Assembly: GCA_016219965.1 (NCBI GenBank)
Contig: JACRJM010000007.1
Span: 372,294-436,293, forward strand
Reading direction: 5' to 3'
DNA from: Candidatus Schekmanbacteria bacterium
Lineage (GTDB): Bacteria > Schekmanbacteria > GWA2-38-11 > J061
Length of the DNA: 64,000 bases
Numbering within the stretch: the stretch's first letter is position 1; the number at the start of each line of letters is the position of its first letter. The translations under genes and the position numbers were made by a program. Below are positions 15,404-63,600 of this stretch, in pieces. The notes beneath the pieces are model-generated. The model did not search any database. It was not told the origin of the DNA and saw only the letters and a program-made list of their open reading frames with translations.

Positions 15404-16807
15404 ATGGCACGAATCGCATTCTTACAGAATTTCTGGTATGAATTTTTAGGCACCATGTATATCTCAGCTTTGCTGAAAGATAGGGGGCATACCTGCGAGG
15501 TATTTATTGAATCCGGAGAGAAAAACTTCACAGAAAGCATAACTCGCTTCAAACCTGACCTCATAGGCTTTTACACGACAACCGGCACTCATGGCTGGGC
15601 ATTATCGAGAGCTTCGAAACTAAAGAAATTAACCGGAAGCCGCGTTATCCTGGGAGGTCCGCATCCAACATTTTTTCCTGAAGTCATAGAGAATGAAGCT
15701 GTAGATATCATATGCATGGGTGAAGGAGAGTATGCCATGATCGAGCTTGCAGAAAGGTTAGACAGCGGGAAATCTTTCGCCGATATTCAAAACCTCCATG
15801 TAAAATCAAATGGGGCAATTACCAGAAACGATCTCAGACCTTTGATAGATGACCTTGATACCCTGCCGCCCCCTGACCGCGCGCTCTACGACAAGTATCC
15901 ATCGCTTCAGGACAATCTGAGCGTCTTTACCGGACGCGGTTGTCCCTTCGACTGCTCATTCTGTTTCAACAGACCCTACATCAAGCTTTACAAAGACAAG
16001 GGAAAGCCAATAAGGAGGCACAGCCCCCGCTGGGTGATAGAAGAATTAAAAAGGATAATAAGACTTTATAAAACGAAGTTCATACGTTTCGATGATGAGG
16101 TTTTCATCCTCAACAATAAATGGCTTACTGAATTTCTCCCCATTTATAAAAAAGAGATAGGACTTCCATTCACGTGCCTTCTCCATGTGAAGCTTGTTAC
16201 ACCTGAGGTAGTCGAATTGCTCAAAGAATCAGGATGCCAGATGGCATACTTCGGGATTGAAAGCGGCAATGAAGAAATAAGAAATGTTGCCTTGAGAAAA
16301 GGAATAAAAGAAGAGGAGATGATGAGGTCTGCCGAGCTTCTAAACAAGGCAGGCATTAAAATTGGCACATACAATATGCTTGGACTGCCCGGAGAAACTG
16401 TGGACAAGGCATTTGAAACCGTGCATATCAATCAGCGCATCGGTGTTGAATACCCGTGGTGCTCTTTATATCAGCCATATCCGGGAACAGACCTTGAAAA
16501 TTATTGCAGGGAAAAGGGACTGCTCGGAGAGGATTATTCCTGCGATTCCATATCTGCATCATTCTTTAAGAGAAGCGTAGTTGAAAACAAAGAGAAAAAA
16601 GAACTTGAGAGATTGCAGAAGCTTTTCCACATTGCCGTGCAGTTCCCAAGCCTTGAGCCGCTCATCAGGTTTGCTGTAAGGCTTCCAATCACATCGCTGC
16701 TGGACGTAATCTTCTATGCTACTTATGGGTATAGGTATATGAAGACATATAAGGTGTCGTTGTGGAGAGTTATCATCACTGGGTTGAGGTCGAGGGAATA
16801 TATCTAG
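15404..16807 (+). CDS. B12-binding domain radical SAM protein (class B rSAM)
   Basis: N-terminal cobalamin-binding-like domain followed by GRGCPFDCSFCFN (CxxxCxxC); start at MARIAFLQ rather than the ORF-track start, which overlaps pgsA. Confidence 0.85.
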   Translation: MARIAFLQNFWYEFLGTMYISALLKDRGHTCEVFIESGEKNFTESITRFKPDLIGFYTTTGTHGWALSRASKLKKLTGSRVILGGPHPTFFPEVIENEAVDIICMGEGEYAMIELAERLDSGKSFADIQNLHVKSNGAITRNDLRPLIDDLDTLPPPDRALYDKYPSLQDNLSVFTGRGCPFDCSFCFNRPYIKLYKDKGKPIRRHSPRWVIEELKRIIRLYKTKFIRFDDEVFILNNKWLTEFLPIYKKEIGLPFTCLLHVKLVTPEVVELLKESGCQMAYFGIESGNEEIRNVALRKGIKEEEMMRSAELLNKAGIKIGTYNMLGLPGETVDKAFETVHINQRIGVEYPWCSLYQPYPGTDLENYCREKGLLGEDYSCDSISASFFKRSVVENKEKKELERLQKLFHIAVQFPSLEPLIRFAVRLPITSLLDVIFYATYGYRYMKTYKVSLWRVIITGLRSREYI

Positions 16808-16821
16808 GTTAGGACATAGGC

Positions 16822-16926
16822 AAAAAGGGGACGCAACCCTTTTTTATTTGGTAAATTCAAGTTTTGTTTGCAAGAAGAAATCAATAGTTCAATAGCGCAA
16901 AAGAAAAAGGGTTGCGTCCCCCTTTT
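16822..16926. repeat. Inverted-repeat pair (~24 bp arms) separated by ~57 bp
   Basis: AAAAAGGGGACGCAACCCTTTTTT at 16822-16845 and its reverse complement GAAAAAGGGTTGCGTCCCCCTTTT at 16903-16926; each arm is itself a weak A-run/GGG/loop/CCC/T-run hairpin. Confidence 0.7.
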
Positions 16927-17064
16927 CTCCGTCTCCGGATTCCCGCTTTTGCGGGAATCTTCAGAGAGTATATTTAGGGAAATCTTTTTTATGTATCTTT
17001 TTTAAACTTTGGCCATTGATTGTAACCAACTTCTGGATTATTCGATTCATATTGAACTGGTGTT

Positions 17065-17090
17065 ATAAAAAACGGGCGCTGTCCCTATTT
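17065..17090. repeat. 26-bp direct repeat, copy 1 (TAAAAAACGGGCGCTGTCCCTATTTT)
   Basis: Identical 26-mer recurs at 17631-17656; the pair brackets the small secreted-protein gene. Confidence 0.8.
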
Positions 17091-17347
17091 TCCCCTATTT
17101 TCCCATGTCCCCCTTTTCCAAACAAAATTTTTTTAATCTGCAAAAAAATTTGCACCATACAAAACCTGATCAAGAACCATTATTTTACCACGGATAAAAA
17201 TTATCTCATTATTTCAGCTAGATACCATCAACCAGAATTAGCCCTACTGATTGGAATGATAATTGCAAAATCATAAGGCAACGGGCAGCGAAGAACAAAC
17301 ATTAAAGCAGCATGAACTTCCATTAGCTTTAATGAGGAGGCAGAAAA

Positions 17348-17569
17348 ATGAAACACATGAAGAAAATGTTGGCTATAATATTATTATCTTTAGCAACAAT
17401 GATTGTTTCCGCAGAAGACACCAGCAAGATTGTTCCCAAGTGCATCCAAATTATCAAAGACAGAAAAGCTCCACCTAAGACAGACTGCGAAAGCTGCCAC
17501 ATATATTGTAAGGGACAGATTGAAATAGTAGAAAAATTTTTAAGTAAGTTAGGAGACTCAAAAAAATGA
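17348..17569 (+). CDS. Small secreted cysteine-rich protein (73 aa), unknown function
   Basis: Strong RBS GAGGAGG 7 nt upstream of ATG; N-terminal signal-peptide-like segment MKKMLAIILLSLATMIVSA; five Cys in the mature part (CIQ..CESCHIYC). Confidence 0.5.
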   Translation: MKHMKKMLAIILLSLATMIVSAEDTSKIVPKCIQIIKDRKAPPKTDCESCHIYCKGQIEIVEKFLSKLGDSKK

Positions 17570-17630
17570 ATAGAGGAAGACACTGGATTCCAGCTTTCGG
17601 GTCAATGACAAGAATTTCGGCAAACTCAAC

Positions 17631-17656
17631 TAAAAAACGGGCGCTGTCCCTATTTT
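17631..17656. repeat. 26-bp direct repeat, copy 2
   Basis: Exact copy of 17065-17090. Confidence 0.8.
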
Positions 17657-17685
17657 TTTTAACACCAAAAATTGAAGTTGCCCCC

Positions 17686-18498
17686 TTAATTCATGCTGCC
17701 GCGTCGATAGCCTTCCAGGTCCAGTGCAACATACTTAAACCCAATAGCCTTTAATTTCTCTATCACCTGATGCCGGGTTTCCTTATCCATCATTTTCTCG
17801 ATTGCGTCCTTTTCAAGCTCTATCCTTGCTATTTCTCCATGATGGCGGACGCGAAGCTGTTTAAACCCAAGCTCTCTCAATACTCTCTCGGCGTCATCTA
17901 CCATGAGGAGCTTTTCGCGGGTAATGTCCGTGCCATAGGGAAAGCGAGATGAAAGGCACGCCATCTCAGGTTTGTCCCATGTCGGAAGGGAAAGCTTTTT
18001 TGAAAGATATCTTATTTCTTCCTTGTTGAGCTTTGCCTCGCAGAGCGGGCTTACAACTCCAAGCTCGCATGATGCGCGCATGCCGGGCCTGTGGTCGCTT
18101 GTAATATCATTGAAGTTTGTCCCGTCTGACACAAGGGCTATACCTTCTTTTTCAGCAATCTTCTTTAACTGCGAGAAAAGTTCGTACTTGCAGTAATAGC
18201 ATCTGTCCGGGGGGTTTTCCCTGAACTGAGGTATGTCAACCTCGCCTGATTCGATAAGTACCTGCCTTACTCCTATCTGGGATGCCATTTTTTTCGCTAT
18301 CTCAAGTTCCTCTTTCGCGTATGTTTCTGAGAGTGCAGTGACAGCGAGCACTTTGTCACCGAGAACATCCTTTGCGACTTTTAACAGGAACGTACTGTCC
18401 ACACCTCCTGAAAAAGCAATAAGAAGACTCTTGTATCCTAATAGGATTTTTTTCAGATCATCAAATTTCTTTTCTGTTTCAGTAACATTTATATCCAT
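17686..18498 (-). CDS. LarE-like PP-loop ATP pyrophosphatase (TIGR00268-type)
   Basis: PP-loop LIAFSGGVDSTFLL and overall LarE/ATP-utilising-enzyme pattern. Confidence 0.7.
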   Translation of the reverse strand: MDINVTETEKKFDDLKKILLGYKSLLIAFSGGVDSTFLLKVAKDVLGDKVLAVTALSETYAKEELEIAKKMASQIGVRQVLIESGEVDIPQFRENPPDRCYYCKYELFSQLKKIAEKEGIALVSDGTNFNDITSDHRPGMRASCELGVVSPLCEAKLNKEEIRYLSKKLSLPTWDKPEMACLSSRFPYGTDITREKLLMVDDAERVLRELGFKQLRVRHHGEIARIELEKDAIEKMMDKETRHQVIEKLKAIGFKYVALDLEGYRRGSMN

Positions 18499-30099: not shown

Positions 30100-30262
30100 G
30101 CACCAAAAATAAAAAAACCGGAAACCTAAAAGGTCCCGGCTATTATCAATAAGGCAAATCTTTGCTCCCTTCGCTGGCATTACCCAGATCAGGTTCAAAG
30201 GGTCACCCCGCAAACCGGGATTTCTCAGCCCTCATCAGGCTCCCCTAACAACCGCATATTAG
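30100..30262 (-). ncRNA. TPP (THI-box) riboswitch with terminator-type expression platform
   Basis: Minus-strand reads UAGGGGAGCCUGAUGAGGGCUGAGAAAUCCCGG..ACCCUUUGAACCUGAUCUGGGUAAUGCCAGCGAAGGGA, matching the conserved THI-element core (CUGAGA, ACCUGAUCUGG, UAAUGCCAGCG, AGGGA); followed by CCGGGA..UUUCCGG hairpin and U7 before the thiS start. Confidence 0.85.
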
Positions 30263-30298
30263 ACTTCCTGCTTTAATAGTCAAGGATTTTATGGAGTG

Positions 30299-30338
30299 GC
30301 AATTTACTCCGTAAACCCTTTTCCCTTCATATCTTCCA
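30299..30338. repeat. Remnant copy A of the GNAT gene 3' end
   Basis: Minus strand reads ..GATATGAAGGGAAAAGGGTTTACGGAGTAA (..DMKGKGFTE*), matching the genuine GNAT C-terminus at 31500-31535; located just after the isochorismatase stop. Confidence 0.75.
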
Positions 30339-30346
30339 TCCCATAT

Positions 30347-30973
30347 TTACTTGCCGGACTTAAGCGACATATAGCTGTTGATAAGGTTGCGGTAGTCGGG
30401 GATGTGCTTAGAGAACAACATTCCCAGACCCTCAACATCATTGCGCCAGTCTCGATGCAATTCGCAGGCCACACCGAACCAGGTCATAAGTTGCGCACCT
30501 GCGGCAGACATGCGATCCCAGGCGGAATGTCGTGTAACCTCGTTGAATGTGCCCGAGGCATCTGTTACGACAAAGACTTCAAAGCCTTCCTCCAAGGCCG
30601 ACAACGCCGGAAAAGCGACACATACTTCAGTCACTATGCCGGCAACGATCAACTGCTTCTTGCCGGTAGACTTTACTGCCTTGACGAACTCCTCATTATC
30701 CCAGGCATTGATCTGGCCGGGACGGGCAATGTAGGGTGCACCAGGGAAGGTTTCCTTCAACTCTGTCATCAACGGCCCATTCGGCCCATCTTCAAAACTT
30801 GTAGTTAGGATGGTTGGTAGCTTGAAATATTTTGCGAGATCGGCCAGAGCCAAGACGTTATTCCTGAATGTATCCGGATCGATATCGCGCACTAGTGACA
30901 AGAGGCCGGACTGGTGATCTACCAACAGTACAGCGGCATTGTTTTTATCAAGACGAACATAGGATTTGCTCAT
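30347..30973 (-). CDS. Isochorismatase-family cysteine hydrolase
   Basis: MSKSYVRLDKNNAAVLLVDHQ..VAGIVTEVCVAFPALSALEEGFEVFVVTDA pattern; RBS AAAGGAG before the MSKS start; visibly higher GC than neighbouring genes. Confidence 0.8.
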   Translation of the reverse strand: MSKSYVRLDKNNAAVLLVDHQSGLLSLVRDIDPDTFRNNVLALADLAKYFKLPTILTTSFEDGPNGPLMTELKETFPGAPYIARPGQINAWDNEEFVKAVKSTGKKQLIVAGIVTEVCVAFPALSALEEGFEVFVVTDASGTFNEVTRHSAWDRMSAAGAQLMTWFGVACELHRDWRNDVEGLGMLFSKHIPDYRNLINSYMSLKSGK

Positions 30974-31110
30974 GGCATGACTCCTTTCATGGTTTGAGTT
31001 TAGTCTCAGACATGAATGGGTGAGAGATGATAACATACGTCATAAATCTTTTCCTCATTCTATACGCTTCTATTTTAAAATTAAATTATTGAAAAGAAAT
31101 TTGCAAGGAA

Positions 31111-31147
31111 TCTACTCGGTAAATCCTTTTCCCTTCATCTCATCTGG
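31111..31147. repeat. Remnant copy B of the GNAT gene 3' end
   Basis: Minus strand CCAGATGAGATGAAGGGAAAAGGATTTACCGAGTAG (PDEMKGKGFTE*) with an in-frame stop immediately upstream, so non-coding. Confidence 0.75.
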
Positions 31148-31215
31148 TTTTTAATGAACGGGAGAAACAGACTGGATTGCCCTCTATACGGGAACAATAA
31201 GAAAGACAAGTTTAT

Positions 31216-31416
31216 CTATCTTAAATCTGAAAGATTTCCTTCCCAAAGTCCTTTATGTCTTCCTGTGAGAAGCTTCTTCCTTTTTAACCGGCTCACCAAC
31301 TCACGCAGAGCCAGCTCAACCACTTCCTTTTTTGTTTTCAAGGAAGTCAATTTCTTTGCCTCGTTTATTAGTTTGTCTTCCAAAACTATATTGGTTCTTT
31401 TGGTATACATAATCAT
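31216..31416 (-). CDS. VapB-family type II antitoxin-like protein (orphan)
   Basis: MYTKRTNIVLEDKLINEAKKLT..KTKKEVVELALRELV..GLWEGNLSDLR resembles VapB antitoxins; no PIN-domain toxin gene adjacent. Confidence 0.55.
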   Translation of the reverse strand: MIMYTKRTNIVLEDKLINEAKKLTSLKTKKEVVELALRELVSRLKRKKLLTGRHKGLWEGNLSDLR

Positions 31417-31499
31417 CCTTCTTTACACATTAAAAAAGCTTATTATTTTTATGCAAGCAATAAGAAAAATAGTTTATCGATAGACAATATGCGAGTAAT

Positions 31500-31922
31500 T
31501 TACTCTGTGAATCCTTTTCCCTTCATCTCATCTGCTTTTCTGAAGAGTGCCATGCCGGTCTTCATTTTCCGCAATCCTAATTTTCTGTAAAAATCTTCTT
31601 TACCGGGAGAGGCAAAGAGGATGACATTGCACTGCGAGAGACGGGAGAGGATGTTTGTAATAATTTTAGTTCCAATCCCCTTTTTTTGGAATTCAGGGAC
31701 AACAGCTACATCATAGATAGCGGCCTGATAAGCCCCATCGGAAATTGCCCTGCCAAAACCAATCAACTGTCCGTCATGATAGACAAACACAGCGACATAG
31801 CTGTTCTCAAAGGCTTTCCTGTGTATGCCGGGCTCATGATACCCCATTCCGACACGCTTTAGCGTTTCCGATACCACTTTCCACTCCACTCCGGAACATT
31901 CAAATTTAATCTCTATTTCCAC
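31500..31922 (-). CDS. GNAT family N-acetyltransferase
   Basis: Acetyl-CoA binding motif (Q/R)xxGxG/A as QKKGIGTKI and overall GNAT pattern; the last ~12 codons are the source of the repeated tail sequence. Confidence 0.85.
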   Translation of the reverse strand: MEIEIKFECSGVEWKVVSETLKRVGMGYHEPGIHRKAFENSYVAVFVYHDGQLIGFGRAISDGAYQAAIYDVAVVPEFQKKGIGTKIITNILSRLSQCNVILFASPGKEDFYRKLGLRKMKTGMALFRKADEMKGKGFTE

Positions 31923-32000
31923 AAAGACCCCCTGAGGACTGAATGGTATCAGAGTGTAACACTGAGAGTATCATGCGATATTCAATTTGTTATTTTTTAA

Positions 32001-32249
32001 TTACTCTGCAACTTGATGGATAATCTCAGAGATATAAGTTTGATATTTTATACCTATTTTTTTTGCTTTAACTTTTATTTTTTCAATATCTTCACTATTA
32101 ACTCTTATAGTCATTGTTATATCTTTCTTTCGTGATTTAAGAGACCTCTCTATTTTTTCAAGTTCTTTACCTTTTATCTTTTTATACTCACCACGCAGTA
32201 ATGCGCTTTCAATCTCTCGTTCTTCTTTAGTTAATCTAATTTTTTTCAT
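32001..32249 (-). CDS. BrnA/CopG-like ribbon-helix-helix antitoxin-like protein (orphan)
   Basis: 82 aa; ITMTIRVNSEDIEKIKVKAKKIGIKYQTYISEIIHQ resembles the BrnA antitoxin family; no BrnT-like toxin adjacent. Confidence 0.5.
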   Translation of the reverse strand: MKKIRLTKEEREIESALLRGEYKKIKGKELEKIERSLKSRKKDITMTIRVNSEDIEKIKVKAKKIGIKYQTYISEIIHQVAE

Positions 32250-32282
32250 TGTTTATCTTTCAGGATTTTGTTTTTTTCTTCA

Positions 32283-32413
32283 TTATCCACAAACCGTTGC
32301 AATATTAGAGATAAGTTTTTTGAGTATTTTAACCTTCTGAATTTTTCACAAAGCTATTTTGTCTCTCGACTTAAACATTTATGACTTACATTTGTTAGCT
32401 ATGAAGATTTGAC
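32283..32413. repeat. ~130-bp direct repeat R1 (upstream of the 82-aa gene)
   Basis: About three-quarters identical by eye to 33361-33490 (shared blocks GAGATAAGTTTTT, TTTTTCAC, ATTTATGACTTA(C/T)ATTTGT, TATGAA). Confidence 0.7.
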
Positions 32414-32448
32414 CTTATTACCCTTTTGAACTTAATACATAGACAACA

Positions 32449-33318
32449 TCATCCTGCTCGTTTAATATCATTTTTAGTTAACTGATATATTGCTGCCTTT
32501 AAAACTTGCCAGCATATTGCAGCAGTGTGTTTATCAGGATTAAACCCACTACTAACTTGCTCATATGGGTGAATATAGTTTCTAAAATATCTTAACGAAT
32601 GACTAAATTTTCGTACATCTTCCAGTAGGAGACCTACATCATATGCTACATCAATAAAATTGTTTAATGACCAATCTGGAAATTGTTTAACTTTTCCTTC
32701 CTTATCTTTTGGTGACATCTTTGATTGATTAAATTCTTTTGGATGTTTTAAAGCTATTCCAAGTAAAATACCCTCCAGTGTACTTCCTGCAAGAAATATT
32801 ACAGAAAGTGGCGCAGTGACAGATAAACATTTTTTCATTTCTTCAAATCGATATTTCAATGTCTCGGTAATAACTCCATCAAGTCCAATTTTCTCAAGTG
32901 AAATTTCGCTAAACTCTCTTTTTAAAAACTCATCTTCTTCTGTTTCACTTGAACTATCTTCGAAGTTTATTTTATCAGCTTTTGCAAATATTATTTCTTT
33001 TTCATTCCTGACAACTTTCCAATTATCAAATGCGAGATATTGATTAAACTCTTTGATGAATTTGTCTAAATCAGCAAATCGACCAATGAAGTTTACTGGT
33101 GCAAACAATTTCTTGATACATTTGTCCAATTCAGGAGTACCGTTGATTTTGGAAAGCTTTTCATCTGTGTACATCCATCTTGAAGGGAATCCTTGTAAAT
33201 ATTGATCCTTAAATCCTAACTCATTAAAAAAACTAACTAATTGAGGGCCGGAACGATATTCCGTTTCTTCATTAATCAGGTTTCTTAATTTCTCAAGTGA
33301 TTTTTTCTGAAGAATCAT
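32449..33318 (-). CDS. Hypothetical protein with AbiJ-like N-terminal region and C-terminal HEPN-like Rx6H motif
   Basis: 289 aa; C-terminal RYFRNYIH fits the HEPN R-x(4-6)-H motif; assignment tentative. Confidence 0.4.
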   Translation of the reverse strand: MILQKKSLEKLRNLINEETEYRSGPQLVSFFNELGFKDQYLQGFPSRWMYTDEKLSKINGTPELDKCIKKLFAPVNFIGRFADLDKFIKEFNQYLAFDNWKVVRNEKEIIFAKADKINFEDSSSETEEDEFLKREFSEISLEKIGLDGVITETLKYRFEEMKKCLSVTAPLSVIFLAGSTLEGILLGIALKHPKEFNQSKMSPKDKEGKVKQFPDWSLNNFIDVAYDVGLLLEDVRKFSHSLRYFRNYIHPYEQVSSGFNPDKHTAAICWQVLKAAIYQLTKNDIKRAG

Positions 33319-33360
33319 TTTAATCCTATATTTGAAACAATAGATGGGGACAAATCTTCG

Positions 33361-33490
33361 TTATCTACAAACTGCTCACTCTGAGAGATAAGTTTTTCGA
33401 AAATTTTCACCCTCTACTTTTTTCACGCAGTCATTTCGTTTCTTGTCTCACAAATTTATGACTTATATTTGTCGTTATGAAAATTTTACA
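33361..33490. repeat. ~130-bp direct repeat R2 (upstream of the 289-aa gene)
   Basis: Paralogous to R1 at 32283-32413. Confidence 0.7.
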
Positions 33491-33660
33491 CTACTAGCCT
33501 CATCTTGTCTCCTTCGATTTTTATTGATCTAACACAGAATTGAGTAATGAGTCACTGAAAGATAACAATATGCCTACAACTAATTGGCATCCATCATAGC
33601 AATGTAAGCAAAAAAAACGACCTAACGCACTCGTTCAAGTGCAGCGTGTACTGGGGGGGG

Positions 33661-34023
33661 TCAGTCACTATATTTGGAAGTCTGCCATGAGTTAACCTCG
33701 AATAGTACGGCACAATCACCGGAATTATTCCAGACAGTTTTCTCAAGTCCCCAAAACATGAAGTGTGTTGTAGACCCATCTTGGTTCTTCTGTTCACTTG
33801 GTGTTCCCGATTTTGTATAAAGGACTACGGAGTCCCCAGCGCGTACCTCTTTTGGCTTGAACCAGTATGCGTGCCGTTGGAGGTTTGAGATTGCATTCTG
33901 AGACGTATACGTTGTGTCAAACACAATAAAGTAATTTAGGTTCGTAGTAGCAATGACTTTAAGCCACAACCGCTCTTTGTTGGCTACACCTCTGTCGACG
34001 ATATTGACTATTTCAATCTTCAT
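33661..34023 (-). CDS. Hypothetical protein (~120 aa)
   Basis: ORF starting MKIEIVNIVDRG; translationally coupled to the upstream membrane-protein gene (4-bp overlap); GC higher than surrounding housekeeping genes; no recognisable motif. Confidence 0.4.
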   Translation of the reverse strand: MKIEIVNIVDRGVANKERLWLKVIATTNLNYFIVFDTTYTSQNAISNLQRHAYWFKPKEVRAGDSVVLYTKSGTPSEQKNQDGSTTHFMFWGLEKTVWNNSGDCAVLFEVNSWQTSKYSD

Positions 34024-34484
34024 CTTTTTACAATCCTCCCGACAGATGCGCCCACTATAATGCATAAACCAACTATACCAGCGATGACGCCATATTCGGA
34101 CTTCTCTCCCCAAAAAAACGGCATCAGACCGATGATAGCGCCCCCGAGACCTACTCCTACGCCAAAAAAAATCTCTATTGCTTTTTGAGTCAGTAATTTC
34201 TCAGAGAGTACTGCTGCTTTCTTGTCGGATTCATGATAGAGGTTTATGTATGATCTTAAATACTCCCGCTCATCATCAGCTTCTTCGAGCAGGCCGAGGA
34301 TAAGCTTCTGCACGCCAGGGGAGAACAACTCTTCGTCGGTCAATTGCCTTCTAACATCTCTGAATGCTGCTCGTCGTCCAGATGGTGGCACACCAGACTC
34401 AATCGTGCCAGTTTCACGTGGTTCTGTTTCCTTTTTTTGACTGGGAGGGCCCAATGCTGAAGCCTCAGTTTTAACATCATTCAT
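34020..34484 (-). CDS. Hypothetical membrane protein (N-terminal soluble region, two C-terminal TM helices)
   Basis: 154 aa; C-terminal glycine-rich hydrophobic segments FFGVGVGLGGAIIGL and GVIAGIVGLCIIVGA. Confidence 0.45.
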   Translation of the reverse strand: MNDVKTEASALGPPSQKKETEPRETGTIESGVPPSGRRAAFRDVRRQLTDEELFSPGVQKLILGLLEEADDEREYLRSYINLYHESDKKAAVLSEKLLTQKAIEIFFGVGVGLGGAIIGLMPFFWGEKSEYGVIAGIVGLCIIVGASVGRIVKR

Positions 34485-34693
34485 TTTTCGCCTCCATCAT
34501 AATTTCAAAGACCTAACATTCCTCTTTATATTTATTCCCTGATTGTCAATTTTATACTCATCATTAAAATACTTAGTCAAGAAAAAGTGCCTATAAGATA
34601 ATTTGAACGTGTAAAAAAAGATAACAAATATTATAAAATGATTTATGATTGACAATCCATTCCATCAACTCAGAAATCTTAAAAGGTAAGATA

Positions 34694-35425
34694 ATGATAT
34701 GTCCTAAATGCAAAATAGAACAGGCTGACGGAAATACTGAATGCACAAGGTGCGGGATTATTTTCGAAAAATATGAAGAGCATCAGAATTTACTTGCTGA
34801 AGAAAAGATTCCTAAGGCTTGTGATGATGAAACAGTATCTTCTCTCATCTCATTAAAAGACTTCTTGTTCTACGTAGCTCCCGGCACCAATCCCTTTTAT
34901 CTTGGCGGGAGAATAATTGTTTTCTTATTCATTCTGGCCTGGAGCATAAACTTTTTCCGTTTTCCAATGGAGAGCAATCATTCGGGGGAAAGTTTCCTCC
35001 ATTTCATAAACATCCCCTTCCATGAAGCAGGGCATATTATATTCATGCCCTTTGGGAGATTTATGAGCGCTCTTGGCGGCACACTGGGGCAACTGCTCAT
35101 ACCGTTTGCCTGTCTTTTCACTTTCCTTATAAAAACACGTGACACCTTCGGAGGATCAGTAGCATTGTGGTGGACTGGAGAAAATTTTCTTGATATTGCC
35201 CCCTATATAAATGATGCGAGGGATTTAAATCTTTTACTCCTGGGCGGAGTGACAGGAAAGGAAGTTGAGGGGCATGACTGGGAATTCATTCTTGGCAAAC
35301 TACAGGCTCTCCGGTATGATCACACTATTGCAAATATTATCCATAATGCCGGAATCGTCGTGATGATTCTTTCGCTTTTATGGGGAGGGTACATTATTTT
35401 TAAACAGGTGATTTCAAGAGCATGA
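34694..35425 (+). CDS. Membrane protein with N-terminal zinc ribbon and HExxH motif (putative intramembrane zinc metallopeptidase)
   Basis: CPKC..CTRC zinc ribbon, then several TM segments containing FHEAGHIIF; start placed at MICPKCK after the AAGGTAAG RBS. Confidence 0.5.
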   Translation: MICPKCKIEQADGNTECTRCGIIFEKYEEHQNLLAEEKIPKACDDETVSSLISLKDFLFYVAPGTNPFYLGGRIIVFLFILAWSINFFRFPMESNHSGESFLHFINIPFHEAGHIIFMPFGRFMSALGGTLGQLLIPFACLFTFLIKTRDTFGGSVALWWTGENFLDIAPYINDARDLNLLLLGGVTGKEVEGHDWEFILGKLQALRYDHTIANIIHNAGIVVMILSLLWGGYIIFKQVISRA

Positions 35426-36099
35426 AGCTGATAAAGAATATTCCAATAAAAATTGATAAAGATGAGCTGTTAAAGATCCTGAAAATAAAAAAGGAGTCTG
35501 CGGGAAAAATCAATGACAATCTCGCAAGGCTGATAGATGAAGAAATAGCGCGGGGGATGAAACTCGCAAGGCCTCAGGCGCTTTATGAATTTAGAAAAGT
35601 AATAAATTCTGATGGTGACGGTGTTGAAATAGAAGGCGGCATAAAGATTGGCGAAAACACTTTCAAGAATTACATGACATCAATTGACCGAATCTGTTTT
35701 GCCCTTGTGACCATAGGTCCTGCCCTTGAAGAGGAGGCTGACAAGCTTCAAAAGGATGGCGAATACACCCGTGCAATGATACTCGATGCTGTAGGGTCAG
35801 TTGCAGTTGAAGATGCGGCAGGGAATTTAAACCACATGATTTGCGACAAATTAAAAGGGAAGAAAACCGGAATATCCCGCCGCTTCAGTCCTGGATATGG
35901 AAAGTTCAAGGTTAAGGAACAGAAAAAAATATCAGACATAATCCCATTCAAAAAAATTGGAGTGGCTCTCACATCATCATTCATGATGGTGCCTCAAAAG
36001 AGCATAAGCTTTTGCCTTTATACTGGAAAGCTTAAAAAAGAAATCCCCGGAACCTGTAATATATGCGGGATGAAGGATTGCCCTTACCGCAGCTGTTGA
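35422..36099 (+). CDS. Hypothetical protein with methionine-synthase-activation-domain-like RFSPGYG motif and C-terminal Cys cluster
   Basis: 225 aa; start overlaps the upstream stop (ATGA); RRFSPGYG; C-terminal CNICGMKDCPYRSC. Confidence 0.4.
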   Translation: MKLIKNIPIKIDKDELLKILKIKKESAGKINDNLARLIDEEIARGMKLARPQALYEFRKVINSDGDGVEIEGGIKIGENTFKNYMTSIDRICFALVTIGPALEEEADKLQKDGEYTRAMILDAVGSVAVEDAAGNLNHMICDKLKGKKTGISRRFSPGYGKFKVKEQKKISDIIPFKKIGVALTSSFMMVPQKSISFCLYTGKLKKEIPGTCNICGMKDCPYRSC

Positions 36100-37765: not shown

Positions 37766-38530
37766 ATGATAGATATTCATTGCCATATATTGCCTTCCAT
37801 AGATGACGGTCCTGACAATATTGACGAGTCAATTGAAATGGCTAAAATTGCCGAAGCCGACGGCATAAAAAAAATAGTTGCTACCCCACATCAGCTCGAA
37901 GGCCTGTACCAGCCCAAACCGGATTATATCCTTGCTAAAATAGAAGAGCTGAACAATCTGTTAACAGACAGGGGGTGCAATGTTGAAATCCTTCCCGGTT
38001 CCGATGCGCACATTTCCCATGATCTAATAAGCAAGATCGAGTCAAATGAAGTTTTTACGCTAAACCGGAAAAACCACATTCTCCTTGAGTTTCCAAATCA
38101 GTTTGTATCCGAAAGGATAAAAGAGCTTTTATCAAGTCTTATTTTAAAACGGATCACACCTGTAATCAGCCATCCTGAAAGAAATTTGATGTTTCAGCGC
38201 AACCCGAACCTTCTGTTTGAAATGATAGGAATCGGAGCGCTTTCTCAGATAACCGCAATGAGTGTGATTGGAGAATTTGGATATGATGCAAAAAAATCGG
38301 CAAAAAAATTCATCTCCCACAGGATGGTTCATTTTGTCGCATCTGACGCACATTCATCAGTGGGAAGGACTCCTGAAATAAGCATTTGCATCAAGCATCT
38401 TAAGAAAATCATATCTGAAGATGAAGTCGAAGAGATTCTTTTTACGAACCCGGAACTCGTTATACTGGGAAAGAGCGTCTATCCGCGCCAGGCGGAAAAA
38501 ATACGATCCTTTTTTGGCCTCTTTGGGTAA
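37766..38530 (+). CDS. PHP-family protein-tyrosine phosphatase (CpsB/YwqE-like)
   Basis: N-terminal MIDIHCHILPSIDDG and downstream His-rich PHP motifs. Confidence 0.8.
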   Translation: MIDIHCHILPSIDDGPDNIDESIEMAKIAEADGIKKIVATPHQLEGLYQPKPDYILAKIEELNNLLTDRGCNVEILPGSDAHISHDLISKIESNEVFTLNRKNHILLEFPNQFVSERIKELLSSLILKRITPVISHPERNLMFQRNPNLLFEMIGIGALSQITAMSVIGEFGYDAKKSAKKFISHRMVHFVASDAHSSVGRTPEISICIKHLKKIISEDEVEEILFTNPELVILGKSVYPRQAEKIRSFFGLFG

Positions 38531-38540
38531 ATAAAAAAAA

Positions 38541-38612
38541 GGCGGCATCCGGACTCGAACCGGAGAATAACGGTTTTGCAGACCGCTGCCTTAGCCACTT
38601 GGCTATGCCGCC
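38541..38612 (-). tRNA. tRNA-Cys (GCA)
   Basis: 72-nt cloverleaf on the minus strand GGCGGCAUAGCCAAGUGGCUAAGGCAGCGGUCUGCAAAACCGU..GGUUCGAGUCCGGAUGCCGCC; anticodon loop CUGCAAA. Confidence 0.9.
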
Positions 38613-38642
38613 GGATTGATTTCTTTCTGCCAAAAAGCAAAA

Positions 38643-38719
<77 letters not shown>

Positions 38720-38801
38720 AATAATGCAAAAAGAGATAATACAAATTCAAAGCCGTTTGTCAATCGGAAAGGGAAGCCCTAGAGTTTTCAACATTATTTC
38801 T

Positions 38802-56734: not shown

Positions 56735-57451
56735 TCAAACTGTCCCTGCTTTTACATCTATCTGCGTAAGCTTCCCATGCTCAAGCCGCAATACCCTGTC
56801 AGACTTACTTGCAATATCAAAGTTATGCGTTGCAATTACAAAGCTTTCGTTCTTGCTTTTATTAAGATTCCGCAAAAGTTCAAATACCTCATCCCCGGTC
56901 TCTCTGTCAAGGTTTCCGGTAGGCTCATCGGCAAGGACTATCTTCGGACTCATTGCCAGGGCCCTTGCTAATGCAACCCTTTGCTGCTCACCTCCGGAAA
57001 GCTCTGAAGGACGATGCTCAACCCTTTCGCCAAGCCCCACTTCTGAAAGGAGGTTAACCGCCAACTCCCTTGCCTCCTTCATGCTTTTCCCGTTGATCAA
57101 TTGCGGTATCATTACATTCTCAAGGCTTGAAAATTCCATAAGAAGGTGGTGGAACTGGAACACAAATCCAATGTTTACGTTCCTGAATCTTGCCCTCTCC
57201 TCTTCCTTGAACTTCCAGATGTCTTCAGAGCCGTAAAAAATCTCCCCGCCATCAGGAGAGTCAAGCAAACCAAGCAAATGAAGCAGTGTACTCTTACCAG
57301 TACCCGATGCACCGACGATGCTCACAAGCTCACCCTGTTTCAGGGAAAAGCTGAGACCCTTTAAGACCTCTATCTTTGCATCTCCCATCTGGTAGGATTT
57401 GCTGAGGTCTTTAGCTTCTAAAATAATATTATTAGACAATTCGCACTTCAT
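56735..57451 (-). CDS. lolD: Lipoprotein-releasing system ATP-binding protein
   Basis: Walker [10 protein letters not shown]; ABC signature [14 protein letters not shown]; Walker [12 protein letters not shown]. Confidence 0.85.
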
Positions 57452-58001
57452 TTGTTGATTACCTTACGACACGGCAAACAGGGCATTATATAAAAAAGTT
57501 CCGGTCATACTTTTAAGCTTCAAGCCTTACCGAAACAAATGCTTTCAACGAAAATAACAAAATAAAACAGGTATGTAAAAAGCCAAATAATTGTGCGAGT
57601 TATATAGGTCGGGGATTAAAAGTCAAGGAAAAATGGCAGCGGATAAAACCGGTACTTATGATATTTTGAAGAAAGAAAACAAGTAGAAAAAAACATAACA
57701 AGCTAAATAAAACCGTCGAATATTTGAACACTTTAAGTCGTTTAAAATCAATATGTTCTAAAAACTCACTAAAAAGTGTGCAGTTTAGTGAACAGTTTAG
57801 TAGGAGTTTATATTAACCTATCCAAGCTATACGACACATTTAAACCTAATATTTTCAAGCAAATCAGTATGTTATTATCTTCGAGTTACCTTCTGGCACA
57901 TTCTTTGCTTATTTTATATAGAATATTTTTTAAGTTTACTATTTAAGTCTTGTATATAGCCTGTAAAATTTTTTTCCACTTCAGAATAAGGGGGTATTGT
58001 G

Positions 58002-60512
58002 ATGAGGCGTAAATCAATTCTATTCATTATTGTTTTCTCAATTCTGTTAATTCCTCTTCTTGCTTTTGCAAACACATCACCTGATACATCAAAAGTTTTA
58101 GCCAAGGCCGCAAAGCTTCAGATACCTTTCATAGAGAACAAGGGACAGGTTCAGGACAAGTCTGTAAGATTTTATGCAAACACCTTCGCAGGCAATGTGT
58201 TTGTTACGGATAAAGGAGAGATAGTTTACGGGCTGGCAAACGGAGAAAGCTTTACTCCCCTTCGCGAAACTCTCCTTGGTACAATACCGTCAACTATAAA
58301 AGGCGAGAGCAAATCAGCAACACAGGTAAATTACTTCGTTGGCAATAAAGAAAACTGGAAGTCAAACATCTCCACATGGGACAGCGTAAATCTCGGCGAA
58401 GTCTATGAAGGTGTAGAGCTAAAGCTCAAAGCATATGGGAAAAATGTTGAAAAGCTTTTCTATGTAAATGAATGCGGAGATGTTGATGATATTAAACTAA
58501 CATTCGACGGCGCAGAAGATATTTCAGTTAACAAAGATGGCGAGCTTGAAATTGAAACAGCTCTCGGCACAGTGAAATTTACAAAGCCCTTCGCCTATCA
58601 GGAAATTGATGGAAAAAAGGTTGAAGTGAAATGCGACTTCGTAACTAATTCTTTCTCCTATGGCTTCCAGGTCACCTCATACAACAAAAACTATCCTCTG
58701 GTTATTGACCCATCTATTGTTTATTCAACATATCTTGGCGGAAGTAGTTTTGATTATGGTTACGGCATTGACGCTGACTGTTCAGGAAATGTTTATGTCA
58801 TAGGTGGCACCGAATCGACTGATTTTATAATTTCTTCTCCATATCAAGGGGATAGTGGTGGTTCTGCAGACATCTTTGTTACAAAAATAAATTCATCTGG
58901 TTCTGTTATCTACTCTACTTATATTGGTGGGAATGGGTATGACAGAGGTTACGATATTGCAGTTGACTGCTCAGGGAATGCTTACATCACTGGCTTTACA
59001 GAGTCTAGTAATTTCCCTACAGTTTCACCGATTCGTGCTACTAATGGTGGAGGTATGGATGTTTTTATTACAAAAATCAATCCCTCAGGCTCAAGCCTGA
59101 TATATTCAACTTATTTAGGAGGTAATTCCAGCGACGTTGGATTTGCTATCGCTGTTAACGCTTCCGGAAATGCATACATTACCGGAAGTACTTTATCATC
59201 AAACTTTCCAAAATATCATAATGTAATCCCAAATTCAAAGTATGGAACCACAGATGCAAGTGACGCTTTTATTGTAAAAATAAATTTATCCGGTACGGGT
59301 CTATTGTATTCCATGCTTCTTGGAGGAAATAATGATGATGAAGCAAAGGGCATCGCTGTTGACGGCAATGGAAACATCTATGTAGCTGGGAACACAAATT
59401 CGTCTGATTTCCCTACTGTTCTTCCTATTCAAGCTACAAAAGCAGGAACTGGCACTACAAGTGATGCTTTTGTCACAAAGATAAATGCCGCTGGAACAGC
59501 AATTTTATATTCTACCTACATTGGAGGTAGTAATATAGATTATGCTAATGGAGCTGACGTAGATAGTGCTGGTAATGTTTATATTACTGGGGCAACTAAA
59601 TCCAATAATTTCCCTACAGTCTTACCAATTAAAGGGTATGGCGGTGGGTATGATGCTTTTGTTACAAAGATTAATGAATCTGGTTCAGCTATTGTTTATT
59701 CTACTTACCTTGGAAGTGGTTATGGAGATTTTGGTAACGGCATCGCTGTTGATAATTCTGGGAATGCTTATGTTGCTGGCAATACAGGTGGGAATTTCCC
59801 TCAAGTATTGCCTGTTCAAACTACAAATTTAGACGGAGGTGATGCTTTTATTACAAAAATAAATGCATCCGGAGATGCTTTTGTTTTTTCCACACGTTAT
59901 GGAGGACAAGAAAGTGATGATGCAAGAGCGATTGCCATTGATAGCAGTGGAAATATTTACATCACAGGAAACACGTCTTCTACTAATTTTCAAATAGCTG
60001 CTCCAATACAACGCGCATATAATGGAGTATGGGACGCTTTTGTTGCAAAGATTGGAGAAGCGTCGGATAGTGATTCGGATGGGATTGCAGATTCAGCAGA
60101 TAATTGTCCTACAGTTTCAAATTCCGACCAAGCTGATTATAATAATAATGGACAAGGTGATGCATGTGACCCGCCTCCAACGTTAATAACCCTTTCCTCT
60201 TTTGAAGCCAAACAATCTGGCAAAAAAGTCTTAATAACTTGGCAGACCGCCACAGAGATCGACAACCTCGGTTTCAACATCCTGCGCAGTGAGACTGCTG
60301 ATGGAGAATATGTTAAGATAAATAAAAAACTCATCAAAGCCAAAGGTAGTTCAACAAAAGGTGCGAGTTACAAGTTCAAAGATAAGAATATCGAGGCAGG
60401 AAAGACTTATTTCTACAAACTCGAAGATATTGACAGTAGCACAGGACCAAATCTGTCTGATGCGGTGAAAGTTGAAGTGACTGCGAGGAAGGGAAAAGAG
60501 AAGAAGAAATAA
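58002..60512 (+). CDS. Secreted SBBP-type beta-propeller repeat protein with thrombospondin-type-3-like Asp-rich segment and conserved C-terminal domain (paralog 1)
   Basis: Signal peptide MRRKSILFIIVFSILLIPLLAFA; about nine tandem units of pattern (V/I)YSTY(L/I)GG..D.G.GIA(V/I)D.SGN.Y(V/I)TG.T.S.NFP; DSDSDGIADSADNCPTVSNSDQADYNNNGQGDACD; C-terminal ~110 aa ending in Lys-rich tail; ATG at 58002 follows RBS AAGGGGG. Confidence 0.8.
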   Translation: MRRKSILFIIVFSILLIPLLAFANTSPDTSKVLAKAAKLQIPFIENKGQVQDKSVRFYANTFAGNVFVTDKGEIVYGLANGESFTPLRETLLGTIPSTIKGESKSATQVNYFVGNKENWKSNISTWDSVNLGEVYEGVELKLKAYGKNVEKLFYVNECGDVDDIKLTFDGAEDISVNKDGELEIETALGTVKFTKPFAYQEIDGKKVEVKCDFVTNSFSYGFQVTSYNKNYPLVIDPSIVYSTYLGGSSFDYGYGIDADCSGNVYVIGGTESTDFIISSPYQGDSGGSADIFVTKINSSGSVIYSTYIGGNGYDRGYDIAVDCSGNAYITGFTESSNFPTVSPIRATNGGGMDVFITKINPSGSSLIYSTYLGGNSSDVGFAIAVNASGNAYITGSTLSSNFPKYHNVIPNSKYGTTDASDAFIVKINLSGTGLLYSMLLGGNNDDEAKGIAVDGNGNIYVAGNTNSSDFPTVLPIQATKAGTGTTSDAFVTKINAAGTAILYSTYIGGSNIDYANGADVDSAGNVYITGATKSNNFPTVLPIKGYGGGYDAFVTKINESGSAIVYSTYLGSGYGDFGNGIAVDNSGNAYVAGNTGGNFPQVLPVQTTNLDGGDAFITKINASGDAFVFSTRYGGQESDDARAIAIDSSGNIYITGNTSSTNFQIAAPIQRAYNGVWDAFVAKIGEASDSDSDGIADSADNCPTVSNSDQADYNNNGQGDACDPPPTLITLSSFEAKQSGKKVLITWQTATEIDNLGFNILRSETADGEYVKINKKLIKAKGSSTKGASYKFKDKNIEAGKTYFYKLEDIDSSTGPNLSDAVKVEVTARKGKEKKK

Positions 60513-60522
60513 AAGATTCTGG

Positions 60523-60583
60523 ATCCCGCATCAAGTGCGGGATGACAAAAGTGACTGTGTTGGATGCCGGCTCAAGTCCGGCA
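60523..60583 (+). other. Tandem stem-loop pair between the large gene and the small peptide gene
   Basis: ATCCCGCA-TCAAG-TGCGGGAT and ATGCCGG-CTCAAGT-CCGGCAT, each followed by GACA; same pair recurs at 63282-63342. Confidence 0.6.
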
Positions 60584-60630
60584 TGACAGATTATTAAGGA
60601 ATGACAACAGGATTAATAGGAGAATATAAA

Positions 60631-60786
60631 ATGAATAAGATGAAAAAAATTTATAAAAAACCAACTATCAGAAAAGTAAAACTTGTTCCTGAAGAAGCAG
60701 TTCTCGGTGTTTGCAAGAGCGACACAGGCGCGGGACCAAATCAGTCAGTCTGCATCATCCCACAATGCTTTAATCCGGGAAGCTGA
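60631..60786 (+). CDS. Conserved 51-aa three-cysteine peptide (paralog 1), unknown function
   Basis: MNKMKKIYKKPTIRKVKLVPEEAVLGVCKSDTGAGPNQSVCIIPQCFNPGS; RBS AGGAGA 7 nt upstream; copy 2 differs at 17 codons, 13 of them synonymous. Confidence 0.65.
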   Translation: MNKMKKIYKKPTIRKVKLVPEEAVLGVCKSDTGAGPNQSVCIIPQCFNPGS

Positions 60787-60820
60787 TTATTTTATAAAAC
60801 AAATATCTGGGGGTATTGTG

Positions 60821-63271: not shown

Positions 63272-63390
63272 AAGATTCTGGATCCCGCATCAAGTGCGGG
63301 ATGACAAAAGTGACTGTGCTGGATGCCGGCTCAAGTCCGGCATGACAGATTATTAAAGAATGACAACAGGATTAATAGGAGAATATAATA

Positions 63391-63546: not shown

Positions 63547-63600
63547 TAGAATTATTATGAGCCGCTGCAACTTTTTATATAAATTGAATAAGGAGCGGGT

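What the first reader, a model, noticed from the sequence alone, without database searches (positions are those of the whole stretch)
30299..31535. Three copies of the GNAT gene 3' end mark serial insertions of single-gene cassettes
The last ~12 codons of the GNAT gene (..ADEMKGKGFTE*, 31500-31535) recur as non-coding remnants after the VapB-like gene (31111-31147) and after the isochorismatase gene (30299-30338). Each inserted unit is one small gene with its own RBS, followed by a copy of the target end. This is the footprint of repeated site-specific insertion at one attachment site overlapping the GNAT stop, or of integron-like cassette accretion, yet no integrase is present in the window.
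Basis: seen in the sequence. Interest (0 to 1): 0.65.

Follow-up and report, generated by a model that had tools for sequence, protein, structure and literature searches.

The report
Repeated gene-end copies bracket inserted genes
The tail of an acetyltransferase (GNAT) gene really does recur twice downstream, bracketing an inserted toxin-antitoxin remnant and an inserted hydrolase gene; this is an old, decaying footprint of serial insertion at one spot, not an integron, and it is of modest interest.

Summary
Three direct copies of ATGAAGGGAAAAGGNTTYACNGAGTAR lie on the minus strand: 31500-31526 (the true GNAT stop), 31112-31138 and 30304-30330. Chance predicts none.

They are genuine GNAT 3' ends, because about 2,200 homologues end in ...M.EKGFTE*. 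Differences between copies in the last 27 nt all fall at third codon positions. Copies 1 and 2 also share about 35 nt past the stop.

The bracketed units differ in composition: vapB GC3 0.42, ycaC 0.58.

- **Sister genome (L002, about 90% nt identity):** it has the same three copies but an intact vapB-vapC pair, so unit 1 was a two-gene module and this window has lost vapC.
- **Distant relative (L091):** it lacks the whole block, GNAT included, so the thiamine operon abuts the flanking gene directly.

No recombinase is encoded in the 64 kb. The repeats have no attC consensus and no hairpin, and 83 other GNAT loci carry only a single copy.

Best reading (confidence about 0.5): relics of two single-crossover insertions of small circular modules, each carrying a GNAT-end mimic, with the recombinase supplied in trans or lost. 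This resembles tandem accretion of integrase-less elements (CIMEs). The integron reading is rejected. Interest is modest.

The parts
31500..31922 (-). GNAT N-acetyltransferase gene (140 aa). Its last 12-20 codons form copy 1.
   Evidence: Pfam PF00583/PF13508/PF13673. 2,245 homologues, mostly 140 aa, end in ...M.EKGFTE*.
31465..31560 (-). Copy 1: the working GNAT 3' end (about 60 nt of coding sequence) plus about 35 nt of 3' flank.
31216..31416 (-). vapB antitoxin gene, now an orphan. This is module 1.
   Evidence: PF09957, E=2.7e-16. L002 has vapB plus vapC (NF047959, E=1e-42) at the same place.
31153..31211 (-). About 50-60 nt of filler. It stands where L002 carries vapC plus a 40-nt 'motif A' (L002 2400-2884).
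31077..31152 (-). Copy 2: a dead GNAT-end remnant (core 31112-31147) plus about 35 nt of flank homologous to the flank of copy 1.
   Evidence: In L002 it still reads PLFKKPDEMKGKGFTE*.
30347..30973 (-). ycaC, an isochorismatase-family cysteine hydrolase. This is module 2.
   Evidence: NF041461, E=1.4e-120. 85-92% aa identity across phyla. Similarity to other genomes ends exactly at the stop codon. GC3 0.58.
30299..30338 (-). Copy 3: a dead GNAT-end remnant of about 36 nt. It sits about 20 nt upstream of the -35 box of the thiamine (thi) promoter.
30149..30283 (-). thi promoter (TTGACT-16-TAATAT) and TPP riboswitch. This is the conserved right flank of the island.
   Evidence: Rfam RF00059, 68 bits. 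Promoter scan. The same promoter and riboswitch occur in L091.
31943..35417 (.). A 3.5-kb segment of the island found in this window only (RHH antitoxin, AbiJ-like ORF289, ORF150, ORF154, ORF258). L002 has 165 nt here instead.
35422..36099 (+). Gene resembling the methionine-synthase activation domain (Met_synt_B12-like). This is the conserved left flank of the island.
   Evidence: PF02965. Syntenic in L002 and L091.

Best explanation
The two downstream copies are dead relics of at least two successive single-crossover (Campbell-type) insertions at the 3' end of the GNAT gene. Each incoming unit was a small circular piece of DNA: one a vapB-vapC toxin-antitoxin pair, the other ycaC (the order of arrival is unknown). 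Each carried its own version of the last 36-60 nt of a GNAT gene, and in at least one case about 35 nt of the 3' flank as well. Recombination within that shared stretch placed the unit directly after GNAT. The unit's version became the gene's working end, and the earlier end was pushed downstream as a non-coding remnant. The recombinase is not encoded in the units or in this window. It acted in trans or has since been lost, so the units resemble integrase-less, att-flanked elements (CIMEs) left by tandem accretion.

The arrangement is old and fixed. A sister strain at about 90% nt identity shares it, and it is decaying: vapC has been lost here and there are several indels.

Shown directly: the copies, their GNAT-coding origin, the compositional distinctness of the modules, conservation of the layout in L002, the loss of vapC, the absence of recombinases and of attC features, and the absence of the whole block in L091. 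Inferred: the circular intermediates, the single-crossover mechanism and the trans-acting enzyme.
For: - Direct repeats of a gene's 3' end flank each inserted unit. A single crossover between a circle and the chromosome produces exactly this topology.
- The repeated stretch is the native, family-wide GNAT C-terminus.
- All differences between copies in the last 27 nt are at third codon positions, and L002 copy 2 still encodes a plausible family C-terminus. So each copy once served as a working gene end. My own estimate is that in-situ duplication followed by neutral decay would put about 44% of changes at third positions; I count 7 of 8 inferred changes there (p about 0.016).
- Both remnants begin within the last 36-60 nt of a 423-nt gene, which argues against random breakpoints.
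- The modules differ in GC3: ycaC 0.58, vapBC 0.31-0.42, GNAT 0.475.
- The modules are compact, with no pseudogene debris.
- ycaC homology to other genomes covers only the ribosome-binding site and coding sequence.
- L091 shows that the locus can be unoccupied.
- Published precedent: tandem islands separated by copies of the target gene's 3' end, some without integration genes (PMC3146451; PMC5704250; bioRxiv 10.1101/2020.12.28.424599).
Against: - No integrase or other recombinase is encoded in the 64-kb window.
- None of the 83 other loci of this GNAT family has a second copy within 10 kb or a tyrosine recombinase next to the gene's 3' end.
- The core motif was not found in the viral or metagenome collections, and a 201-nt stretch spanning L002 copy 2 and motif A matched no plasmid.
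- No relative shows GNAT with an unoccupied 3' end at this locus.
- Only one lineage (two assemblies) shows the layout, and it is identical in both, so there is no sign of recent activity.
- The units (0.4-0.9 kb) are far smaller than described CIMEs.
- Similarity of 100 nt or more at only 80% identity is not what a site-specific recombinase needs.
Confidence: 0.5

Rival explanations
1. Same Campbell-type topology, but carried out by the host's homologous recombination (RecA). Circularised fragments taken up from related genomes, in which a GNAT orthologue sat next to vapBC or ycaC, recombined through their 36-100 nt of GNAT homology.
For: The repeats include about 35 nt of apparently native GNAT 3' flank. 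A weak resemblance to that flank is seen downstream of a 78%-identical GNAT in L092/L093. No recombinase is needed, which fits its absence. The copies share a 23-nt perfect match.
Against: No GNAT locus among the 83 others has vapBC or ycaC nearby (L092-L094 by their called genes), so no donor arrangement has been seen. Homology is short and only 80-89% identical. Both remnants start at similar positions, which random fragment ends would not predict.
Confidence: 0.2
2. In-situ origin. A local duplication of the GNAT end arose by template switching, break-induced replication or tandem GNAT paralogues, and foreign DNA was captured between the duplicates. The remnants then decayed.
For: It needs no mobile element or recombinase, and only one lineage shows the layout.
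Against: Differences between copies are almost all at third codon positions, whereas neutral decay of a dead duplicate would spread them evenly (p about 0.016, my estimate). The event would have to happen twice with similar boundaries and with different cargo of different composition.
Confidence: 0.12
3. An integron-type cassette array without an integrase (a CALIN), with the GNAT-end repeats acting as attC sites.
For: The units are compact, one or two genes each, all in one orientation. The cargo is typical of integrons (GNAT, toxin-antitoxin, hydrolase). The repeats are 40-100 nt and follow each unit.
Against: No R''/R' consensus pair occurs in any inter-ORF region on either strand. Single-stranded DNA folding is no better than shuffled sequence. 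No IntI is present. The repeat is a conserved protein-coding end, not a palindrome.
Confidence: 0.03
4. The repeats are kept because they function. Either the 8-codon mini-ORF MKGKGFTE acts as a leader peptide, or TTYACN serves as a -35 box for the downstream genes.
For: All six copies keep ATG...stop intact with only synonymous differences. Two copies match a promoter pattern, TTCACA-16-TATTGT and TTTACG-18-TAAAAT.
Against: Promoter-like matches are no more frequent than in shuffles, 10 found against 10.0 expected. No Shine-Dalgarno sequence precedes the mini-ORF. Copy 3 lies upstream of the thi promoter and so outside that transcript. Gene conversion between copies can explain the synonymous pattern.
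Confidence: 0.05

Closest known systems
Tandem accretion of integrative elements and cis-mobilizable elements (CIMEs), e.g. ICESt1-related islands of Streptococcus (reviewed in PMC5704250)
   Same: Successive units sit at one target gene's 3' end. Each is bounded by direct repeats that contain that gene end, and the units lack integration and transfer genes while keeping attL/attR-like repeats.
   Different: The units here are only 0.4-0.9 kb (one or two genes) with no decayed backbone. No cognate integrase is known. The target is a non-essential, itself horizontally acquired GNAT gene. The repeats are long (40-100 nt) and only 80-86% identical.
Dehalococcoides ssrA genomic islands (PMC3146451)
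   Same: Multiple direct repeats of a gene's 3' end lie downstream of that gene and separate tandem islands. Some of those islands have no integration module.
   Different: There the repeat is 20 bp of the tmRNA gene, the islands are several kb, and many still carry a serine-recombinase module. Here no recombinase is found anywhere in the window.
Prochlorococcus islands built by tycheposons (bioRxiv 10.1101/2020.12.28.424599)
   Same: Repeated integrations at one site push older elements inward and leave partial copies of the target between cargo modules.
   Different: The targets there are tRNA genes, the elements carry tyrosine recombinases, and activity has been demonstrated. None of this is shown here.
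Integron cassette arrays and CALINs
   Same: Compact, co-oriented cassettes of one or two genes, each followed by a repeat of 40-140 nt. The cargo types are similar.
   Different: The defining attC structure and consensus are absent, and so is IntI. The repeat here is a coding gene end.
Xer-dependent elements: IMEX elements and Acinetobacter pdif modules (from my own knowledge, not tested rigorously here)
   Same: Small integrase-less modules, often toxin-antitoxin pairs, bounded by short recombination sites that a host recombinase uses in trans.
   Different: By eye I saw no 11-6-11 dif-like dyad in the repeats. The repeats here are direct rather than alternating in orientation. The locus shows no sign of being the replication terminus.

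Membership tests
Integron / CALIN | attC site: R'' (RYYYAAC) and R' (GTTRRRY) 40-140 nt apart, forming an imperfect hairpin as single-stranded DNA | tested here: not met
   No R''/R' pair on either strand in any of 8 inter-ORF regions of the window and L002. Single-stranded DNA folding z-scores are -0.7 to +1.1.
Integron / CALIN | IntI integrase and attI next to the array (needed for a complete integron; absent by definition in a CALIN) | tested here: not met
   No Phage_integrase or any other recombinase family among the window ORFs of at least 90 aa. The rest of the genome could not be searched.
Integron / CALIN | Compact, co-oriented cassettes, mostly one ORF each | tested here: met
   GNAT, vapB(C) and ycaC all lie on the minus strand with short spacers.
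Tandem accretion / CIME | Each unit is flanked by direct repeats that contain the 3' end of the target gene | tested here: met
   Three copies, chance expectation zero. The repeated stretch is the native GNAT C-terminus.
Tandem accretion / CIME | The units lack their own integration and transfer genes | tested here: met
   The units contain only vapB(C) or ycaC.
Tandem accretion / CIME | A cognate site-specific recombinase exists and uses this att site | not testable with these tools
   None is present in the 64-kb window.
Tandem accretion / CIME | The same target is used in other genomes, or an unoccupied target exists in relatives | tested here: not met
   83 other GNAT loci have a single copy each. 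L091 lacks the whole block including GNAT. No relative has GNAT with an empty 3' end at this locus.
Type II toxin-antitoxin system VapBC | Adjacent VapB antitoxin and PIN-domain VapC toxin genes | tested here: not met
   Only VapB is present in the window (PF09957). VapC is present in L002 (NF047959) but has been replaced here by about 50-60 nt.
TPP riboswitch | Match to Rfam RF00059 above the gathering score, located upstream of thiamine genes | tested here: met
   68.1 bits against a gathering score of 54.3, at 30149-30256 (minus strand), followed by thiS-thiG-thiE-thiD-thiC.

The most novel reading that the evidence does not exclude
These are a non-integron kind of gene cassette. Sub-kilobase units of one or two genes would use, as their recombination site, a 40-100-bp double-stranded mimic of a host gene's 3' end plus flank. 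A recombinase encoded elsewhere would capture them one after another. A second repeat family in the same island (32277-32424 and 33355-33500, sharing 'motif A' with the vapC flank in L002) would mark further cassettes of the same system.
Probability: 0.1. Interest if true: 0.7.

Novelty: new variant of a known kind. Interest (0 to 1): 0.35.

Why it matters
If the reading is right, small accessory genes (a toxin-antitoxin pair and a widely transferred hydrolase) can be stacked one at a time behind a protein-coding gene in a little-studied candidate phylum. The units involved are far smaller than the integrative elements normally credited with such footprints, and they carry no recombinase of their own. 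That would add a mechanism for building micro-islands. The remnants would also provide a datable record of successive acquisitions. As it stands, this is one old, inactive example in one lineage, so its main value is as a pointer to what to look for in the complete genome and in the raw reads.

Tried and rejected
- **Integron attC:** consensus search and single-stranded DNA folding were both negative.
- **Recombinases in the window:** Pfam on 54 of the 55 ORFs of at least 90 aa found none. The 55th, 38460-38750 (96 aa), overlaps the two tRNA genes and was not scanned.
- **GNAT 3' end as a general attachment site:** 80 species-representative loci plus 6 further contigs were checked with a peptide regex, an nhmmer profile and a tyrosine-recombinase motif regex. 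Each has a single copy, and no integrase is adjacent.
- **The motif elsewhere:** metagenome and viral pattern scans for both motifs, and a plasmid BLAST of a 201-nt L002 stretch, returned nothing.
- **Donor arrangements (GNAT next to vapBC or ycaC):** none found.
- **A decayed scar of the GNAT end in the empty-site relative L091:** the resemblance is not significant, p about 0.1.
- **Homology between the GNAT-end repeats and the second repeat family rep_a/rep_b:** not significant, z below 1.5.
- **Functional constraint on copy 2:** window and L002 are 97.5% identical there against about 90% overall. This is only marginal (p about 0.025, my own binomial estimate from the profile) and was not relied on.
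- **Promoter function of the copies:** matches are no more frequent than in shuffles.
- **Other Rfam families in the island:** none.
- **Exact-protein look-ups of ThiS and VapB:** nothing on record.
- **A third strain (protein P0362, 14.4-kb contig):** it could not be fetched.
- **Homology-facilitated illegitimate recombination:** rejected on topological grounds, because one template strand cannot supply the duplicated segment twice.

Full report
**Observation**

The minus strand of the window carries three direct copies of ATGAAGGGAAAAGGNTTYACNGAGTAR, at 31500-31526, 31112-31138 and 30304-30330. None occurred in 100 dinucleotide-preserving shuffles. The repeat finder gives the same three copies as 36 nt at 86% identity. 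It also shows that copies 1 and 2 align over 75 nt at 80% identity (31465-31539 vs 31077-31151), which runs about 35 nt beyond the stop codon. Local-alignment z-scores against shuffles are 12-28. Two independent assemblies repeat the layout: L001 (100% identical) and L002 (about 90% identical).

**What the copies are**

Copy 1 is the true end of a 140-aa GNAT acetyltransferase gene (31500-31922, minus strand). The gene belongs to a tight family of more than 2,200 proteins, mostly exactly 140 aa, whose C-terminus is almost always ...M.EKGFTE/D*. The repeated stretch is therefore native GNAT coding sequence. It is not an independent element that the ORF happens to run into.

Copies 2 and 3 are not joined in frame to vapB or ycaC, and copy 2 has an in-frame stop just upstream. 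Across all six copies (window and L002), every difference between paralogous copies in the last 27 nt lies at a third codon position. The variants are GGA/GGG, TTC/TTT, ACA/ACC/ACG and TAA/TAG. In L002, copy 2 still reads PLFKKPDEMKGKGFTE*, a credible family C-terminus, over about 60 nt.

I count 7 of 8 inferred changes at third positions. My rough expectation for a dead duplicate decaying next to a live copy is about 44%, which gives p of about 0.016. This is my own estimate, not a tool output. Most of the divergence therefore accrued while each copy was a working gene end. Gene conversion between copies could blur this inference.

**The bracketed units**

- **Unit 1 (copy 1 to copy 2).** It holds vapB (PF09957). 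In L002 the same position holds vapB plus an intact PIN-domain vapC (NF047959, E=1e-42) and a 40-nt 'motif A'. The window has about 50-60 nt of unrelated filler there instead. Unit 1 was therefore a two-gene toxin-antitoxin module, and this genome has lost the toxin.
- **Unit 2 (copy 2 to copy 3).** It holds ycaC (NF041461, E=1.4e-120). This hydrolase is 85-92% identical in protein sequence across many phyla. Its nucleotide similarity to other genomes begins 12-28 nt before the start codon and ends exactly at the stop codon.
- **Composition.** GC3 differs sharply between units: ycaC 0.58, vapB/vapC 0.31-0.42, GNAT 0.475, neighbouring host genes about 0.39-0.47.
- **Compactness.** Both units are compact and carry no pseudogene debris.

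**Wider context**

L002 matches the window on both sides of the region: L002 1-1508 aligns to window 36924-35418, and L002 1673-3926 aligns to window 31942-30174, apart from the vapC difference. The window also has 3.5 kb (31943-35417) where L002 has 165 nt.

A more distant relative, L091 (flank protein 53% identical), has htrA-thiC-thiD-thiE-thiG-thiS, the TPP riboswitch, 170 nt of spacer, and then the methionine-synthase-activation-domain-like gene. It has no GNAT, no vapBC and no ycaC. The thiamine (thi) promoter (TTGACT-16-TAATAT) is conserved, and copy 3 sits about 20 nt upstream of its -35 box.

The whole block, GNAT included, is therefore an islet inserted between two conserved genes. 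GNAT is not an ancient resident of this locus. A possible scar of the GNAT end in the L091 spacer is not significant (p about 0.1).

The window-specific 3.5 kb contains a second pair of direct repeats, 32277-32424 and 33355-33500 (148 nt, 75%). They bracket an AbiJ-like ORF. Their first 40 nt match the sequence just after vapC in L002 (z=13). Module boundaries marked by diverged repeats are thus a recurring feature of this islet.

**Tests of mechanism**

- **Integron.** No RYYYAAC...GTTRRRY pair occurs in any inter-ORF region on either strand. The repeats do not fold as single-stranded DNA better than shuffled sequence (z -0.7 to +1.1). No Rfam family other than the TPP riboswitch reaches its threshold in the islet.
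- **Recombinase.** Pfam on 54 of the 55 ORFs of at least 90 aa finds no integrase, transposase or resolvase. The remaining ORF (38460-38750) overlaps the two tRNA genes and was not scanned.
- **General attachment site.** Among 80 species-representative loci of the GNAT family with 10-kb flanks, plus six further contigs, a peptide regex and an nhmmer profile of the six copies find exactly one copy per locus. A tyrosine-recombinase motif regex hits only once, and not next to a GNAT 3' end.
- **Donor arrangements.** None of those loci has vapBC or ycaC nearby.
- **Other collections.** Neither motif occurs in the metagenome or viral collections as exact patterns, and a 201-nt stretch spanning L002 copy 2 and motif A has no plasmid match.
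- **Flank of the repeat.** The roughly 35 nt after the stop that copies 1 and 2 share may be native GNAT 3' flank. A 78%-identical GNAT (L092/L093) shows a weak resemblance there.

**Best explanation**

Direct repeats of a target's end flanking an insert are the signature of a single crossover between a circular molecule and the chromosome. I conclude that two small circular modules (vapBC and ycaC), each carrying a GNAT-end mimic, integrated in succession at the GNAT 3' end. Each time, the incoming version became the working end of the gene and the previous end was pushed downstream.

Several features fit this reading:

- the similar left boundaries of the two remnants, within the last 36-60 nt of a 423-nt gene;
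- the coding-type divergence between the copies;
- the distinct composition of the modules;
- the homologous flanks after copies 1 and 2.

The enzyme is unknown. A site-specific recombinase acting in trans, or since lost, is my first choice. RecA acting on short homology is the main alternative.

The arrangement predates the split of the window strain and L002, which show about 10% nucleotide divergence. It shows only decay since then, so nothing indicates current activity. Confidence in the Campbell-type reading is about 0.5, plus 0.2 for its RecA variant.

An in-situ duplication is disfavoured by the codon-position pattern and by the need for two similar events (0.12). A functional mini-ORF or promoter is unlikely (0.05). 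An integron is essentially excluded (0.03).

**Comparison with known systems**

The closest descriptions are:

- tandem accretion and integrase-less, att-flanked CIMEs in streptococci (PMC5704250);
- Dehalococcoides ssrA islands, where a 20-bp copy of the ssrA 3' end separates tandem islands, some without integration modules (PMC3146451);
- Prochlorococcus islands, where successive integrations leave partial tRNA copies between cargo (bioRxiv 10.1101/2020.12.28.424599).

This case works like those but differs in four ways: unit size (under 1 kb), the complete absence of any backbone or integrase, a protein-coding and itself acquired target, and long repeats of only 80-86% identity. It fails the membership test for integrons. 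For CIMEs it meets the structural features, but the existence of a cognate recombinase could not be tested, and use of the same target elsewhere was tested and not found.

**Verdict**

Three points need correction: the units are not all single-gene, the integron alternative fails, and GNAT is itself part of the inserted block. I classify this as a new variant of a known kind of footprint. It is seen in one lineage and appears inactive. Interest is 0.35. The most novel reading the evidence does not exclude is a non-integron cassette system that uses gene-end mimics as recombination sites. I give that about 0.1 probability.

Noticed in passing
window 32277-32424 and 33355-33500 (minus strand): A second pair of direct repeats (148-170 nt, 75-78% identical) brackets ORF289 (32449-33318), which resembles AbiJ/Stk2 N-terminal domains and has GC3 of only 0.22. 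Each repeat contains a small ORF of about 31 aa (MKIFEKLISQSEQFVDNED...; frameshifted in the copy at 32277-32424). Its stop overlaps the ATG of the next gene (ATGA): ORF289 in one case, the RHH antitoxin gene in the other.
   Followed up: partly
L002 2819-2860; window 32369-32411 and 33447-33486: A 40-nt 'motif A' (TTCATAGCTRACAAATRTAAGYCATAAAT...) lies directly after the vapC stop in L002 and at the start of both second-family repeats in the window (z=13). In all three places it is preceded by tandem stop codons (TAGTAG or TAATAA). Its function is unknown. It was not found in the metagenome or viral collections.
   Followed up: partly
window 31943-35417 versus L002 1509-1672: The window has 3.5 kb (ORF258, ORF154, ORF150, ORF289, RHH antitoxin) where the sister strain has 165 nt. 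The breakpoints fall at the GNAT ribosome-binding site and at the start codon of the Met_synt_B12-like gene. This looks like replacement rather than simple insertion.
   Followed up: partly
window 34649-35425 (+): ORF258 has an N-terminal zinc-ribbon-like CxxC...CxxC and a membrane region with an HEAGH motif. It has no Pfam, NCBIfam or PADLOC match. It overlaps the start of the next gene by 4 nt and is absent from L002 and L091.
   Followed up: no
window 30347-30973; loci L087-L090: YcaC is 85-92% identical in protein sequence across very distant phyla (Nitrospina, methanotrophs, Brucellaceae), which suggests frequent horizontal transfer of this single gene. In L088/L089 it sits next to a Y2 (IS91-type) transposase and is preceded by fragments of a decayed ycaC-like gene.
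   Followed up: partly
window 57999-63547: Two adjacent large genes encode SBBP beta-propeller / DUF7948 proteins (837 and 862 aa). They share segments of 600-770 nt at 87-91% nucleotide identity, so they are recent tandem paralogues with internal repeats.
   Followed up: no
window 16807-17686: An 880-nt stretch has no ORF of 90 aa or more. It contains an exact 26-nt repeat (17066-17091 and 17631-17656) and a 48-nt inverted repeat (16822-16869 / 16879-16926, 77% complementary) that looks like a bidirectional terminator. There is no Rfam match.
   Followed up: partly
window about 57000-58000: Cumulative GC skew falls steadily up to about 57 kb and then rises. Gene orientation switches from the minus to the plus strand at the same place. 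This may be a replication origin or simply a strand-bias boundary. No dnaA gene was seen.
   Followed up: no
window 38540-38612 and 38647-38719 (minus strand): tRNA-Cys(GCA) and tRNA-Gly(GCC) lie 3 kb from the islet but are not adjacent to it. No integrase sits next to them.
   Followed up: yes
L002 2965-3000 versus window about 31058-31068: L002 carries an extra 25-35 nt of short tandem-like repeats (GTGTGTATAGCGTATAGATAGCGTATATATA) upstream of ycaC, and an extra 37 nt between ycaC and copy 3. These are small indels that show continuing decay of the spacers.
   Followed up: partly
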